DNA of 64,000 nt from Escherichia coli O157:H7 (GTDB lineage: Bacteria; Pseudomonadota; Gammaproteobacteria; Enterobacterales; Enterobacteriaceae): the NCBI RefSeq assembly GCF_013167455.1, contig NZ_CP038328.1; one strand, 5' to 3'. The position numbers and the translations under genes are program-made. Shown one piece after another: positions 22,561-52,800 of the stretch. How positions within the stretch are numbered: the first letter of the stretch is position 1; each line of letters begins with the position of its first letter. The notes under the pieces are model-generated. The model was not told where the DNA came from and did no database searches. It was given only the letters and a program-made list of their open reading frames with translations.

Positions 22561-22564
22561 AACG

Positions 22565-47933: not shown

Positions 47934-47992
47934 AGCGGAAAAGAGCGGCGCGGAGTTAACCAGCCGCTTTTTTCATACAAGGACGTTTAACG

Positions 47993-48601
47993 ATGAAAAT
48001 CAGGCTACTGATCCTCAGCCTGCTGGTTTCTGTGCCTGCCTTTGCCTGGCAGCCGCAAACTGGCGACATCATCTTTCAAATCTCTCGCTCATCGCAAAGT
48101 AAAGCGATCCAACTGGCGACCCATTCCGATTACAGCCACACCGGTATGCTGGTGATGCGTAACAAAAAGCCCTACGTTTTTGAAGCGGTCGGCCCGGTGA
48201 AATACACCCCGCTCAAGCAGTGGATTGCCCATGGTGAAAAGGGCAAATACGTTGTTCGCCGCGTTGAAGGCGGACTGAGTGTTGAACAACAGCAAAAACT
48301 GGCGCAAACGGCGAAACGTTATCTCGGCAAACCGTACGATTTCAGCTTCTCATGGAGCGACGATCGCCAGTACTGTTCGGAAGTGGTGTGGAAGGTTTAT
48401 CAGAATGCGCTGGGAATGCGTGTGGGCGAACAGCAGAAGTTGAAAGAGTTTGATCTCAGCAACCCGCTGGTCCAGGCGAAGCTCAAAGAACGCTACGGCA
48501 AAAATATTCCGCTTGAGGAAACGGTGGTCTCACCACAAGCCGTTTTCGATGCGCCACAACTCACCACGGTTGCCAAAGAATGGCCGCTGTTTTCGTGGTA
48601 A
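47993..48601 (+). CDS. yiiX: DUF830-family protein YiiX (permuted papain-like fold, signal peptide)
   Basis: 202-aa ORF MKIRLLILSLLVSVPAFAWQPQTGDIIFQISRSSQSKAIQLATHSDYSHTGMLV. Confidence 0.9.
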   Translation: MKIRLLILSLLVSVPAFAWQPQTGDIIFQISRSSQSKAIQLATHSDYSHTGMLVMRNKKPYVFEAVGPVKYTPLKQWIAHGEKGKYVVRRVEGGLSVEQQQKLAQTAKRYLGKPYDFSFSWSDDRQYCSEVVWKVYQNALGMRVGEQQKLKEFDLSNPLVQAKLKERYGKNIPLEETVVSPQAVFDAPQLTTVAKEWPLFSW

Positions 48602-48604
48602 TGG

Positions 48605-48706
48605 ATGATGAAAAAAATAATTCCCGCCGTAGTCTGTTTGTTGCTTTGTAGTTGCACGACCTTTCCGCAAGCTGTCGCTCCGGTAAACGGTGATGCCTCC
48701 AATTAG
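48605..48706 (+). pseudogene. 5' stub of a lipoprotein-like gene, interrupted by the IS1-like element after codon 28
   Basis: ATG 48605 encodes MMKKIIPAVVCLLLCSCTTFPQAVAPVN (KK, hydrophobic stretch, Cys) ending exactly at the IS boundary 48688; the last 5 codons and the stop lie inside the IS left inverted repeat. Confidence 0.3.
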
Positions 48707-48745
48707 TTGAATTAAGGATATAATACTCGCTTTTAAGGATGTTTC

Positions 48746-49018
48746 ATGGTCACAGTTAACCTTCATTGTCCCCGTTGCCAGTCCGTTCAGGTTTACCGTC
48801 GCGGGCAGAACCCCAAAAGACATGATCGATTCCGCGGCCGTGACTGTCACCGGGTATTTCAGCTCAGTTACTGTTACGAGCCCCGTAAACCGGGAGTTAA
48901 AGACCAAATCGCTGAAATGGCTTTCAACGGTGCCGGGGTTCGCTATACTGCCCGTACGCTGAAAATCGGCATTAATACAGTCATCCGAACTTTAAAAAAC
49001 TCTCGCCACGAAGAATAA
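48746..49018 (+). CDS. insA: IS1-family InsA (zinc-finger/HTH transposition regulator)
   Basis: 90-aa ORF MVTVNLHCPRCQSVQVYRRGQNPKRHDRFRGRDCHRVFQL...GINTVIRTLKNSRHEE; CxxC...CxxC motif; A-run (TTAAAAAACTC) at its 3' end like the IS1 programmed frameshift site. Confidence 0.85.
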   Translation: MVTVNLHCPRCQSVQVYRRGQNPKRHDRFRGRDCHRVFQLSYCYEPRKPGVKDQIAEMAFNGAGVRYTARTLKIGINTVIRTLKNSRHEE

Positions 49019-49452
49019 CGTCATCCCCGGTCGCTCATGCTGATGTGGCACTCATCTGCAAACTTAGTCAGCAATGGAGCTTTGTCGGCAGTAAAGCGCG
49101 ACAGCACTGGCTCTGGTACGTGTACAACACGAAAACTGGTGGTGTTCTGGCCTACACTTTTGGCCCCCGGACTGATGAAACCTGTCGTGAATTGCTGGCG
49201 CTGCTTACCCTTTTACCATCGGCATGTTGACCACTGACGAATGGGGTAGTTACGCTAGAGAGTTACCAAAGGAGAAGCATCTGACTGGTAAGATTTTTAC
49301 TCAGCACATTGAGCGTAACAATCTGACCCTGAGAACCCGAATCAAACGTCTGGCCCGCAGAACCATCTGTTTCTCGAGTTCTGTAGAACTTCATGAAAAA
49401 GTCATCGGTGCTTTTATCGAAAATATATGTTCTACTAATTGGAGTCATCACC
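49000..49452 (+). pseudogene. insB: IS1-family insB transposase reading frame, interrupted
   Basis: InsB-like segments split over two frames (49045..49230 ...QWSFVGSKARQHWLWYVYNTKTGGVLAYTFG; 49224..49538 MLTTDEWGSY...TQHIERNNLTLRTRIKRLARRTICFSSSVELHEKVIGAFIE); the second frame has no stop inside the element and reads through into flanking DNA. Confidence 0.6.
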
Positions 49453-49593
49453 CTTCTGATGAGCTTTCCTTGGATGATTACCAGACTGAATACACAGCCA
49501 AAGATTTTTACCTCATTCTGCTCTTTTTTCTCAAATGACATATATTATATTTTACATCATATTCATAGGCATATGACATTCCCCCGCCCCCCA

Positions 49594-49830
49594 TTATGTC
49601 ATTGTGGGTTGATGTTGGGCTTTCATAAAAAAATACATCTTTTTTGAACTAGCATTAATTATATTTACTTTATATATTAAAATATTTTCTCCATCTGGAA
49701 ATATTTTAGCCACACAATATAAAGCAGCTAAATCCGAATTACTTAAAAATATATTGTCATCACTCATAACTCCAGCCATTAAATGACTGGAGACTAAAGC
49801 AAGGAAATAACAACATTGTATTGCCTTCAT
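49594..49830 (-). CDS. small hydrophobic-N-terminus protein immediately downstream of rhs; candidate cognate immunity protein
   Basis: ATG at 49830, 1 nt after the rhs TAA (49832-49834), GGGAG about 10 nt upstream; 78 aa MKAIQCCYFLALVSSHLMAGVMSDDNIFLSNSDLAALYCVAKIFPDGENILIYKVNIINASSKKMYFFMKAQHQPTMT; AT-rich like the toxin tip. Confidence 0.6.
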   Translation of the reverse strand: MKAIQCCYFLALVSSHLMAGVMSDDNIFLSNSDLAALYCVAKIFPDGENILIYKVNIINASSKKMYFFMKAQHQPTMT

Positions 49831-49831
49831 T

Positions 49832-52800
49832 TTAATTACTCCCTTGCCTGATAATTGTAACTCCATTCCCTTTAGCTTTGGGATTATATTTTAGATAGGT
49901 GTTATTTGGTGTTCCCAAGTAACTACTGCATTCTTTTTTTCCCATTCCATTCATATAAGAATTCGTTAAATCTTTGCTTGAAAAATTTAGACTATCATAA
50001 ACATCATTTTCTTTTGTTACTTTATTTCCTTTATCGTCAGAGTAAAAACCGTGAGTGTGATAATCGCCTACTCTCTCTGAACCTTCAGGGCATTTTATAT
50101 TTCGCAAGTCTACACTATCATTATCATTTGAACTTATCGGATTCATGGGGAAATATTCACCTTGCTTCTTACATATTAGTCCACCATATTCTTTATTCTC
50201 GTTAATTGATTCTCCATTACACATTGCCAATGCAAATATTCCAATATCATCTATATTTTTTGATTTAAATTCATATAATCCTAATGGATCCATGCCATTC
50301 ACCGGGCTCAGCGGATATGTATACAGGTTCCATCCCCCCTTCAGCCCAATCGGATCCTGAGTGATATACCTCCCCTGCAGCGGGTCATAATAGCGGTGGC
50401 GGTTGTAATACAGGCCGGACTCCTCATCATACTGCTGCCCCGGCAGGCGGATAAGCTGCTGCAGCTGATGCGGGTTCTCTTCATTCAGCAGGTTGCCCCA
50501 CTCATCGTATTCTGCGCACCATTCTGTTGCCCCTTCCTTACTGATAAGGGCCAGCGGCAGGCCGCGATGGTCGCAGTGGTACAGGTGGATTTTTCGCGCC
50601 GGCGTGTATACCGGGTCCATCTGGCTTTGCATCTGCGCCACAGTCAGGCCGCACGATGCCAGCCAGCGGCGGCTTTCCTCACTCACCCGGTCAGCCAGGA
50701 TTTCACTTTCCAGCCGGTCGAGCATCTGCACCAGCACCGGCGGGAACACCACACTGCCACCGTCTTCGCCGCCGGACTGCTGAAGCGCATCCGCCAGGCT
50801 GCGGCGCTGCGTTTTCGCCAGCTCACCGGTGGCGGTTTCAACCCTGATGAGTGGCGTGAAGCTCCCCGGCTGATAAATCGTCTGGATGCGGGTTCTGTCG
50901 TTCTGTATTGTGGTCAGCCGGTCGCCGTCCCAGCCGTACCAGGTCACTTGCGGTTTCCGTGACAGCGACATCCAGCCCGTCAGGTCCCGTTCACGTCGCC
51001 ACACCCGTTTTGCCACCCTGCGGCCCAGCGGGTCGTAAAGATAGCGGCTTTCGACCAGCGGCTCTTCATATTGTGTCCGCGTGTAGTGCACCAGCCGGTG
51101 CTGACTGTCGTAATGGTACCGGTGAGTCCGCTCATCATCCGTGCGGATAACCCCTTCCGGGATGAGGTCGGTTTTCTCTGTCAGCCTGCCGTGACGGTCA
51201 TACCAGTAAAGATAGTGCGCGTCACGGGCGATACGGTTATCCGGCCACATGCTGAGGGTGCTGTCCGGGTGCAGCTCCGGGTCGGGCAGGCGGTTACCTG
51301 CCGGGTCCGTGGCATACGGGATGCGGATATCCAGATTCGCTGCGGTGGTGTGAACGCCGGTCAGCCTGCCGGAGTCGCTGTAGCTGTAACTCCGGGTCTG
51401 GCGCGGGCTGCTGATGCGGATGAGTTCGCCGTTGTCGTTCCAGGTGTAATCGCGGTCATACTGCAGGCTGTTCAGGTGCTGGCTCTGTAACTGCCCGGCA
51501 GGGGTATAAGCGGTGGTGAGTTCATAACGGCCGAATCTGCGCAGCGTTTTCCGGTGCAGGCGGTCGCGGGTGAAATCCACCAGCGGTGTGTCGCCGAGCT
51601 TCATGCCTGCCAGCCAGCCGCTGCCATAGGTCAGCCATTCCACGGCGGGCAGGCTGTCCGGTATACAGCGGTTCGCCAGCCCCTGCGCGTTGTAAGCGTG
51701 TCTGGTCTCATGCTGCCAGAGCAGTGCTTCCGTCTGCGGGTGATGCACCGTCTGACGCTCACCGGTCAGCCGGCCTTTCTCATCATACCCGTAATGCACC
51801 GTCACCCGGTGCCCTTCGCTGATATGGCTGATGTCTGTCAGCCAGCCGCGTTCGTCATACTGCCAGCGCTCTGCGGTTTCACCCTTCACGGTGCGGTGCG
51901 TGAGGCGGTCTGCTTCGTCATAGTGCCAGTGGGTGACCAGCCCCTCATCCTCGCTGCGGATAAGTTTGCCGGTCAGGTCGTGGTGATAACGCTGTGTGCG
52001 GCCGTCAAAGCCGGTTTCCTGTATCAGCCGGTCGAGTACATCGTAACGGAAGGTGGTGTGGCTGCCGTTTTCACTGGTCAGGCGGATGACCCGTCCGGCA
52101 GCATCGTATTCCATACTGCGCGTCAGACCGCCCTGCGTGGTACAGATGGCTTTTCCCCACGCATCGTACTGTGTCCCGTTTCTGCTGCCGTCCGGGGCAA
52201 TGACGGTGGTCAGGTCACCGGCGGCGTTGTATTCATACCGCGTTTCATGGCCCTGCGTGTCTTTCACGGCAATTAACTGTCCACGGCTGTCGTATGCGCG
52301 GTACTGACTCAGCCCTTCCTCGCGGTGCACCGCCGTCATCTGCCCGAAGCGGTCATGGTCATAACGGGTTACATAACCGGAACAGTCGGTGAAGCTCAGC
52401 AACTGACCGTAACGGCTCCACGTCATGGTTTTCCGGCTGCCGGTGGCATCTTCCGTTGCGCAGGGTAAGTCACTGTGTGGATTATCATAACGGTAGCGGG
52501 TGATATCGCCGTCAGGGGCAGTTTCCTGAATCAGACGGCCCCATTCATCATATTCCCGGCGTATTTCCAGCCCGTCAGGCCCGGTGGCTGACGTTAACTG
52601 GCTGTGGTGGTTATAGTAAAACGCCGATGCCCTGCCATCCGGCGTGGTGATGCGCGTGATGAGGCCCGTCACCACATCCGGGCTGTATTCTGTTGTCCTG
52701 CCTGCGGCATCCGTCTGTGCCCTGAGCCTGCCCACCGCGTCAAACTGACTCTGCGTGACGCTGCCGTCCGCGTGTTCCTTTTTCACCACCCGCTTCAGCC

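What the first reader, a model, noticed from the sequence alone, without database searches (positions are those of the whole stretch)
48689..49452. Degenerate IS1-family element with no flanking target duplication, abutting the toxin/immunity module
The 764-bp element has recognisable IS1-type inverted repeats and an intact insA with its A-run frameshift window, but the insB frame is broken between 49224 and 49233 and has lost its stop, reading out into flanking DNA. The 9 bp flanking each end (CCGGTAAAC on the left, CTTCTGATG on the right) do not match, so there is no IS1-type target-site duplication. This suggests an adjacent deletion or recombination after insertion, possibly removing further orphan toxin/immunity cassettes.
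Basis: seen in the sequence. Interest (0 to 1): 0.4.

Follow-up and report, generated by a model that had tools for sequence, protein, structure and literature searches.

The report
Dead IS1H marking an old deletion
This is a known, inactivated copy of the insertion sequence IS1H in E. coli O157:H7, sitting where an old IS-associated rearrangement removed most of a neighbouring lipoprotein gene and joined the rest to an Rhs toxin locus. It is an ordinary genome scar, not a new kind of element.

Summary
Window 48689-49452 is a 764-bp IS1-family element. The Sakai reference genome already annotates it as IS1H with the same ends.

Compared with intact 766-bp, 231-aa IS1N-like relatives, it carries several lesions:
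- Two 1-nt deletions in insB': one at 49207/08, and one in the A-run 49420-23 that removes the stop codon.
- Loss of the first catalytic Asp (D108S).
- Loss of a zinc-finger Cys in InsA (C31G). The insA frame is open but probably not functional.

There is no 8- or 9-bp target duplication, whereas intact relatives do have 8-bp duplications.

The left end (IRL) cuts an ancestral DUF2459/TIGR02117 lipoprotein gene after 84 nt. The remaining 550 bp (540 coding nt plus 10 downstream) are absent. The right end (IRR) abuts DNA 55 bp downstream of the Rhs immunity-like gene dsORF-f3. About 2,170 of 5,426 complete E. coli genomes share both junctions. None shows an empty site or an intermediate.

Five genomes carry a further 870-bp deletion flush with IRR. 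It ends at a site where an intact IS1B is inserted in rhsB.

Best reading: a fossil IS1H at an IS-mediated deletion or recombination junction. Whether orphan toxin cassettes were also lost cannot be tested. The finding is ordinary and of low interest.

The parts
48605..48688 (+). 5' remnant of the ancestral TIGR02117/DUF2459 lipoprotein gene (signal peptide plus lipobox, 28 codons), cut exactly at IRL
   Evidence: It is colinear with the complete 207-aa gene of strain 1919D3 up to window 48688. The full protein hits TIGR02117 (E 1e-67) and DUF2459 (E 5e-46).
48689..49452 (+). IS1H, a 764-bp defective IS1-family element
   Evidence: Sakai annotates it as a repeat_region 'IS1H Family: IS1' with identical ends.
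48689..48711 (+). IRL (left inverted repeat), GGTGATGCCTCCAATTAGTTGAA
   Evidence: 21/23 matches with IRR. It is nearly identical to the IRL of intact relatives.
48746..49018 (+). insA ORF (90 aa), open but with C31G in the zinc ribbon (codon 48836-48838)
   Evidence: Pfam PF03811 and PF12759. In alignment A1, column 31 is an invariant Cys in 8 intact relatives.
48991..49000 (+). TTTAAAAAAC programmed -1 frameshift motif
   Evidence: Sequence. The same motif is present in IS1A and in intact IS1N-like elements.
49001..49209 (+). insB' segment 1, in the -1 frame relative to insA. It carries D108S/E109Q (49066-49071) at the first DDE Asp and ends at the 1-nt deletion at 49207/49208.
   Evidence: Pfam DDE_Tnp_IS1 positions 1-55. 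See also alignments A1.
49209..49538 (+). insB' segment 2, in the shifted frame (an ATG lies at 49224). A second 1-nt deletion in the A-run 49420-49423 removes the stop, so the frame reads through IRR into flanking DNA up to 49538.
   Evidence: Pfam DDE_Tnp_IS1 positions 56-127; ORF list; DNA alignment.
49430..49452 (+). IRR (right inverted repeat), ...TTCTACTAATTGGAGTCATCACC
49453..49507 (.). 55-bp spacer between IRR and the stop codon of dsORF-f3. This is the right junction, conserved in 2,161 genomes.
49508..49830 (-). dsORF-f3, the putative immunity gene of the Rhs C-terminal toxin. In O157 it is frameshifted (T6 at 49640-49645 versus T7 in strains with the intact gene).
   Evidence: PGAP annotation and alignment.
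49832..54016 (-). rhs gene (1394 aa) with a DUF4329 C-terminal domain. This is the historical RhsF locus between yiiX and rpmE.
   Evidence: It is locus 11 of PMC2935791.
50323..50331 (.). ACAGGTTCC at the rhs core/C-terminal boundary. This is the endpoint of the extra IRR-flush deletion seen in 5 other genomes. It is homologous to the 9-bp target of an IS1B insertion in rhsB.
54081..54128 (.). 48 bp of ancestral backbone upstream of the rpmE terminator, marking the right limit of the rhs insert
   Evidence: It is homologous to a DUF2459 + arylsulfotransferase lineage that has no rhs (L019).

Best explanation
The element is a fossil copy of IS1H, an IS1-family isoform closest to IS1N. It can no longer make transposase.

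It sits on a rearrangement junction rather than at a simple insertion site. One end is joined to nucleotide 84 of an ancestral DUF2459 lipoprotein gene. The other end is joined to DNA just downstream of the last Rhs toxin/immunity cassette.

The most likely history has two steps:
1. IS1H inserted at one of these two sites.
2. Either an intramolecular transposition (the classic IS1 'adjacent deletion') or recombination with a second, directly repeated IS1H copy removed everything between the two sites.

The lost DNA includes at least the 3' 540 nt of the lipoprotein gene and one copy of each target duplication.

The product was then inherited or spread by homologous recombination to about 40% of E. 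coli. Along the way it accumulated inactivating mutations that all sampled copies share.

What is shown: the identity of the element, its ends, its lesions, the truncated gene, the missing duplication, and the population-wide conservation of both junctions. What is inferred: the deletion mechanism, and which junction is the original one.
For: **Identity and ends:**

**Lesions,** judged against eight intact 231-aa relatives and an intact 766-bp element.

**No duplication here, but 8-bp duplications around intact relatives:**

**Left flank is the 5' end of the TIGR02117 gene:**
- Homology ends exactly at 48688.
- The gene is ancestral. It lies next to rpmE in Salmonella and in a divergent Escherichia lineage.

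**No empty site or intermediate:**
- 0 of 5,426 genomes have the two flanks contiguous.
- All 289 genomes with the complete gene have it directly beside rpmE with no rhs.

**Both junctions are widely conserved:**
- Left junction in 2,174 genomes and right junction in 2,161.
- The geometry is identical in 10 of 10 distinct contexts from a much larger assembly collection.
- Fifteen sampled copies form six haplotypes. All are 764 bp and carry the same indels.

**Precedent at the same locus:**
- Five genomes lack 49453-50322, flush with IRR.
- That deletion ends at the nucleotide homologous to an IS1B insertion in rhsB, which has a perfect 9-bp duplication.

**Precedent for the recombination route:** one IS1N-like copy has hybrid flanks drawn from two other copies.
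Against: - No intermediate genome survives (rhs plus a complete lipoprotein gene, or the flank without the IS). The deletion is therefore inferred, not observed.
- All sampled copies are already defective. The later L007-type deletion would need transposase supplied in trans, a second IS copy, or a transposase-independent mechanism.
- The IS1H-rhs block could instead have arrived as one unit (see rivals).
Confidence: 0.8

Rival explanations
1. Co-acquisition. IS1H was already joined to the distal end of the rhs cassette array in a donor. The IS1H-rhs block then entered this locus as one piece. On the left, an IS1H-end strand transfer into the lipoprotein gene made the joint. On the right, homologous or illegitimate recombination near rpmE made the other joint. 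Under this reading, no deletion of resident cassettes ever occurred here.
For: - IS1H and rhs are never found separately at this locus.
- The boundary between ancestral and novel DNA on the left coincides exactly with the IRL terminus.
Against: - The right boundary (54080/54081) has no IS1 end or repeat.
- No donor locus was found. A scan of 100,044 species-representative genomes for the right flank returned only a mis-binned E. coli contig.
- This scenario still needs a precise IRR joint made in an earlier event, so it only moves the same rearrangement to another genome.
Confidence: 0.15
2. Simple insertion whose target duplication has decayed by point mutation, with no rearrangement.
For: The element is old and has up to 2% divergence among copies.
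Against: - The flanks share essentially no identity (CCGGTAAAC versus CTTCTGATG).
- The sequence after IRR is not the continuation of the lipoprotein gene (AATGACTTTG...).
- Both flanks are conserved at 98-100% identity across lineages.
Confidence: 0.01
3. Not a real IS: a chance inverted repeat around unrelated ORFs, or ends that lie elsewhere.
For: None beyond the broken reading frames.
Against: - Full-length colinearity with IS1A and with intact IS1N-like elements.
- Pfam and NCBIfam IS1 hits with E-values from 1e-16 to 1e-34.
- Reference-genome annotation as IS1H with the same ends.
Confidence: 0.01

Closest known systems
IS1H (ISfinder isoform name), as annotated in E. coli O157:H7 Sakai NC_002695.2 and by NCBI PGAP ('IS1-like element IS1H family transposase')
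   Same: This is the same element with the same ends and length (764 bp). Copies at the same locus in other strains are 98-100% identical.
   Different: Nothing material. The O157 copy has three lineage-specific substitutions: 48739, 48801 (H19R) and 49377 (R212S).
IS1N-type elements (Shigella dysenteriae, Klebsiella, other Enterobacterales), which are intact, 766 bp long, and encode a 231-aa InsAB' protein
   Same: - Same architecture: inverted repeats, insA, the A6C motif and insB'.
- Nearly identical IRL.
- 81-86% amino-acid identity to the repaired full-length InsAB' in the nine-sequence alignment, and 86-88% to the repaired InsB' part in the database search.
- 78% DNA identity to the one intact copy compared.
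   Different: - The window copy has two 1-nt deletions, D108S and C31G, so it cannot encode the fusion transposase.
- The intact copies carry 8-bp target duplications. This one has none.
IS1A of E. coli K-12 (768 bp)
   Same: Same family organisation and the same terminal GGTGATG...CATTACC-type ends.
   Different: The DNA is strongly diverged. IS1A is intact and active, and it makes 9-bp duplications, as the IS1B copy in L017 shows.
IS1-mediated adjacent deletions (classical genetics of IS1; recalled from the literature, not read here)
   Same: The IS is retained, one flank is replaced, the deletion ends precisely at the IS terminus, and the target duplication is lost.
   Different: The event here is ancient and is inferred from comparative genomics only. 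The element is now dead.
RhsF / rhs locus 11 (yiiX-priA) of E. coli (PMC2935791; the 'dsORF-f3' nomenclature)
   Same: Same chromosomal position and the same downstream ORF.
   Different: The finding concerns the IS at the distal edge of the locus, not the Rhs system itself.

Membership tests
IS1 family insertion sequence | Terminal inverted repeats of about 23 bp beginning with GGTGATG | tested here: met
   21/23 complementary. They align with the IS1A and IS1N-like termini.
IS1 family insertion sequence | Length of about 760-770 bp | tested here: met
   764 bp, which equals 766 bp minus two 1-nt deletions.
IS1 family insertion sequence | insA encoding a zinc ribbon plus an HTH domain | tested here: met
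   PF03811 at E 4.7e-18 and PF12759 at E 1.4e-28. However, the third zinc-binding Cys is Gly.
IS1 family insertion sequence | A6C -1 frameshift motif linking insA to insB' | tested here: met
   TTTAAAAAAC at 48991-49000.
IS1 family insertion sequence | insB' encoding the DDE_Tnp_IS1 catalytic domain | tested here: met
   PF03400 is matched over model positions 1-127, but split across two frames.
Autonomous (functional) IS1 element | A continuous InsAB' fusion frame with an intact DDE triad and an in-frame stop inside IRR | tested here: not met
   There are two frameshifts and D108S, and the stop is lost.
Simple IS1 insertion event | 8-9-bp direct target duplication flanking the element | tested here: not met
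   The flanks are CCGGTAAAC and CTTCTGATG. Control relatives have 8-bp and 9-bp duplications.
IS1H isoform | Near-identity to the element catalogued as IS1H | tested here: met
   The Sakai repeat_region 'IS1H' is the same sequence. PGAP labels copies that are 99% identical as IS1H family. The ISfinder record itself could not be consulted.
IS-mediated adjacent deletion product | The neighbouring ancestral sequence is interrupted exactly at the IS terminus, and the distal part is absent | tested here: met
   DUF2459 gene homology ends at 48688, and the 550 bp that should follow are missing.
IS-mediated adjacent deletion product | Existence of the pre-deletion arrangement in a related genome | tested here: not met
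   None was found among 5,426 complete E. coli genomes, 100,044 species representatives, or 10 sampled assembly contexts.

The most novel reading that the evidence does not exclude
The ends of this dead IS1H may still be usable by IS1-family transposase supplied in trans. Separately, the GC-rich/AT-rich boundary between the rhs core and its toxin-encoding tip (NNNNNTTCC|ATCCCCCC) may be a preferred IS1 target.

If both hold, IS1 elements would recurrently delete or disrupt Rhs toxin/immunity tips. IS1 would then be a driver of Rhs C-terminal turnover, not just a bystander.

The evidence is limited to two events: the L007-type deletion endpoint, and an independent IS1B insertion in rhsB at the homologous nucleotide.
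Probability: 0.12. Interest if true: 0.4.

Novelty: already known. Interest (0 to 1): 0.12.

Why it matters
It matters little beyond annotation.

- It explains why a conserved DUF2459 lipoprotein gene is missing from O157:H7 and roughly 40% of E. coli.
- It shows that the distal edge of the yiiX-rpmE Rhs locus is a fixed IS scar, while the toxin-proximal side keeps changing.
- It warns that 'IS1 family transposase, frameshifted' here is a true pseudogene and not a programmed frameshift.
- The shared IS1 target at the rhs core/tip boundary is a small lead for people who study Rhs toxin turnover.

Tried and rejected
- **Empty site.** I searched for one by joining the two flanks into a single query. 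No genome has them contiguous.
- **Intermediate state.** I looked for a complete DUF2459 gene together with rhs. All 289 genomes with the complete gene have it directly beside rpmE.
- **Other species.** I scanned 100,044 species-representative genomes for the right flank. The only hit was an E. coli contig mis-binned into a Lachnospiraceae MAG, colinear with the window and including IS1H.
- **Duplication around the whole block.** I looked for a target duplication or an IS1 end bracketing the whole IS1H-rhs block. There is none, and the right boundary is plain DNA.
- **Second copy nearby.** I searched the 64-kb window for a second IS1H copy that could be a recombination partner. There is none. 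A second, partial match elsewhere in O157 chromosomes was not located.
- **A second programmed frameshift.** I considered whether the insB break might be a second programmed frameshift, because a 92% relative at another locus (L004) shares it. I rejected this for two reasons. Intact relatives have one more base there and a continuous LLALLTPF motif. A metagenomic variant of this same copy also lacks the break.
- **Domestication of insA.** I considered this because the ORF is open in all copies. There are too few substitutions to test it, and the zinc-finger Cys is lost.
- **Primary literature.** I tried to read the original RhsF paper (Hill laboratory, 1998). It is not held in the library.

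Full report
**What the window is and where the element lies**

The 764-bp segment 48689-49452 is 100% identical to the chromosomes of many E. coli O157:H7 strains. The gene order around it, is:
- metB (-), metJ (+), yiiX (+, 47993-48601)
- 87 bp of spacer
- the element
- 55 bp of spacer
- dsORF-f3 (-, 49508-49830)
- a 1394-aa rhs gene (-, 49832-54016)
- the rpmE terminator, rpmE and priA

This is the rhs locus between yiiX and priA that Jackson et al. list as locus 11 (PMC2935791). The dsORF-f3 label suggests it is the historical RhsF element; that link is my inference.

**Checking the observation**

- The arms 48689-48711 and 49430-49452 are 21/23 complementary.
- The element aligns end to end with IS1A of K-12.
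- It also aligns end to end with an intact 766-bp IS1N-like element whose IRL is almost identical.
- The Sakai reference genome annotates the same 764 bp as a repeat_region 'IS1H Family: IS1'.
- PGAP labels copies that are 99% identical as 'IS1-like element IS1H family transposase, frameshifted'.

The coding content is that of an IS1 element.
- insA (48746-49018) hits the InsA zinc-ribbon and HTH domains.
- The TTTAAAAAAC slippery motif lies at 48991-49000.
- The Pfam IS1 DDE domain is split between two frames: model positions 1-55 in one and 56-127 in the other.

I repaired the frame conceptually and aligned it with eight intact 231-aa IS1-family transposases. I also aligned the DNA with an intact element. 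Together these show exactly two 1-nt deletions:
1. One at 49207/49208, next to the C-run 49208-10. It breaks the conserved LLALLTPF motif.
2. One in the A-run 49420-49423. It takes the TAA inside IRR (49436-38) out of frame, so the ORF runs on to 49538.

It lies about 17 nt downstream of the actual lesion.

Two substitutions hit residues that are invariant in the intact relatives:
- The first catalytic Asp: ELDEQW has become KLSQQW, with the changed codon at 49066-68.
- The third zinc-finger Cys of InsA: FRCRDC has become FRGRDC, at codon 48836-38.

So insA is open but not intact in the functional sense.

The 9-bp flanks are CCGGTAAAC and CTTCTGATG, and there is no 8- or 9-bp repeat. Two positive controls show what a simple insertion looks like. 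Intact IS1N-like copies carry 8-bp duplications, CATTGTCA and CTTGCGGG. An intact IS1B in rhsB carries a perfect 9-bp duplication.

**What the flanks really are**

The 87 bp between yiiX and IRL are not K-12 backbone. They hold the start of a lipoprotein gene (MMKKIIPAVVCLLLCSC...).
- In 289 complete E. coli genomes, including BL21 and HS, this gene is complete. It is 207 aa long, belongs to TIGR02117/DUF2459, and lies directly beside rpmE.
- Homology between the window and that complete gene stops at 48688, the base before IRL. It resumes only at 54129, in the rpmE terminator.
- The gene is ancestral at this position. Salmonella has a DUF2459 gene next to rpmE.
- A divergent Escherichia lineage has yiiX, DUF2459, an arylsulfotransferase gene, a 64-aa ORF and then rpmE.
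- That lineage also shares window 54081-54128. The rhs insert therefore ends at about 54080.

A simple insertion into the lipoprotein gene would leave the rest of the gene after IRR. Instead, IRR is followed by DNA downstream of dsORF-f3. So at least 550 bp of ancestral DNA have been removed flush with an IS end.

**Population picture**

| Feature | Genomes (of 5,426 complete E. coli) |
|---|---|
| Left junction (lipoprotein-gene remnant / IRL) | 2,174 |
| Right junction (IRR / dsORF-f3 flank) | 2,161 |
| Both flanks contiguous (empty site) | 0 |
| Complete lipoprotein gene together with rhs at this locus | 0 |

In a far larger assembly collection, the exact dsORF-f3 protein occurs in 8,981 index blocks. 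All ten distinct contexts returned have the same 906-nt spacing between dsORF-f3 and yiiX, which means IS1H is present in each. The rhs side, by contrast, varies: a full-length Rhs, an orphan C-terminal fragment with ISAs1, or an IS5-like insertion.

Fifteen sampled copies fall into six haplotypes with up to 2.1% divergence. All are 764 bp and share both frameshifts. The junction and the inactivation are therefore old. One metagenomic variant of this same copy lacks the C-run frameshift (P0072), so that lesion may be the younger one, or the run may be unstable.

**Mechanism**

Both joints are precise to the terminal nucleotides of the IS but have unrelated targets. Three routes could give this result:
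1. Insertion followed by intramolecular transposition, the classical IS1 adjacent deletion (recalled from the literature).
2. Insertion of a second, directly repeated copy, followed by homologous recombination between the two copies.
3. Arrival of a pre-formed IS1H-rhs block.

The data cannot separate routes 1 and 2. Route 3 is less likely: no donor locus was found, and the right boundary of the rhs insert has no IS feature.

Two observations show that such events do happen here.
- Five independently sequenced strains (the L007 type) lack 49453-50322, which covers dsORF-f3 and the toxin tip. The deletion starts flush with IRR and ends at ACAGGTTCC, on the rhs core/tip boundary.
- An intact IS1B is inserted in rhsB at the homologous nucleotide, with a perfect AAAAATTCC duplication. 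That endpoint is therefore a genuine IS1 target.

For the recombination route, one IS1N-like copy carries hybrid flanks drawn from two other copies.

The L007-type copies already carry the inactivating lesions. That later deletion would therefore have needed transposase from another IS1-family element, or a second copy to recombine with. This step is inference.

**What cannot be said**

Nothing shows what lay between the lipoprotein gene and the present right flank. Loss of orphan toxin/immunity cassettes is possible but untestable with surviving genomes. The orphan cassettes that do vary among strains lie on the other side of dsORF-f3, toward the main rhs gene.

**Comparison with known elements, and novelty**

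The element is IS1H, already catalogued and annotated in the reference genome. Its closest intact relatives are IS1N-type elements. They share 81-86% amino-acid identity with the repaired full-length InsAB', 86-88% with the repaired InsB' part, and 78% DNA identity with the one intact copy compared.

It meets every structural criterion of the IS1 family. It fails the criteria for an autonomous element and for a simple insertion. A dead IS at a deletion junction is a textbook outcome. I therefore rate it already known and of low interest.

The only mildly new points are the identification of the truncated DUF2459 gene and the shared IS1 target at the rhs core/tip boundary.

Noticed in passing
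window 49640-49645 (within dsORF-f3, 49508-49830, - strand): The putative immunity gene downstream of the DUF4329-type Rhs toxin tip is frameshifted in O157:H7. It has a T6 run where strains with the intact 107-aa ORF have T7. The main Rhs toxin therefore appears to lack a full-length cognate immunity gene.
   Followed up: partly
window 50323-50331; L007 7765-7773; L017 2299-2307 and 3076-3084: Two independent IS1-family events use the homologous nucleotide at the rhs core/C-terminal boundary. One is the IS1H-flush deletion endpoint (ACAGGTTCC) found in 5 genomes. The other is an intact IS1B insertion in rhsB with a 9-bp duplication, AAAAATTCC. This may be an IS1 target hot spot.
   Followed up: partly
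L013, L014, L015, L016 (positions 1444-2209 in each): Intact IS1N-like elements carry 8-bp duplications (CATTGTCA and CTTGCGGG). One genome carries a copy with the left flank of one site and the right flank of the other. This is a present-day example of inter-copy recombination that erases a target duplication.
   Followed up: partly
window 48602-54128 compared with L005 (K-12), L006 (1919D3), L019, L018 (Salmonella): The yiiX-rpmE interval has at least four states within Escherichia:
- Nothing (K-12, only a 12-bp filler).
- A DUF2459 gene alone.
- DUF2459 plus an arylsulfotransferase gene plus a small ORF.
- IS1H plus rhs.

K-12's filler ends with CAAAATT, which resembles the ancestral 48-bp segment at window 54081-54128.
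   Followed up: partly
O157 chromosomes outside the window; the pO157 plasmid: O157 chromosomes have a second, partial match to IS1H that was not located. pO157-type plasmids carry a 555-bp fragment at 89% identity. B2 strains such as UTI89 carry a 112-bp IRL-end fragment.
   Followed up: no
L012 (SFGN01000258.1): A 2.2-kb contig binned into a 'Lachnospiraceae bacterium' MAG is 98.6% identical to window 48188-50426 (yiiX-IS1H-rhs). It is E. coli contamination of that bin.
   Followed up: yes
window 47934-47992 compared with K-12: The metJ-yiiX spacer is 59 bp here and 183 bp in K-12 and strain 1919D3. The extra DNA in 1919D3 matches short repeats scattered through the window (for example near 22564, 27548, 38186 and 43663). 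It may be a REP-type element; this was not checked.
   Followed up: no
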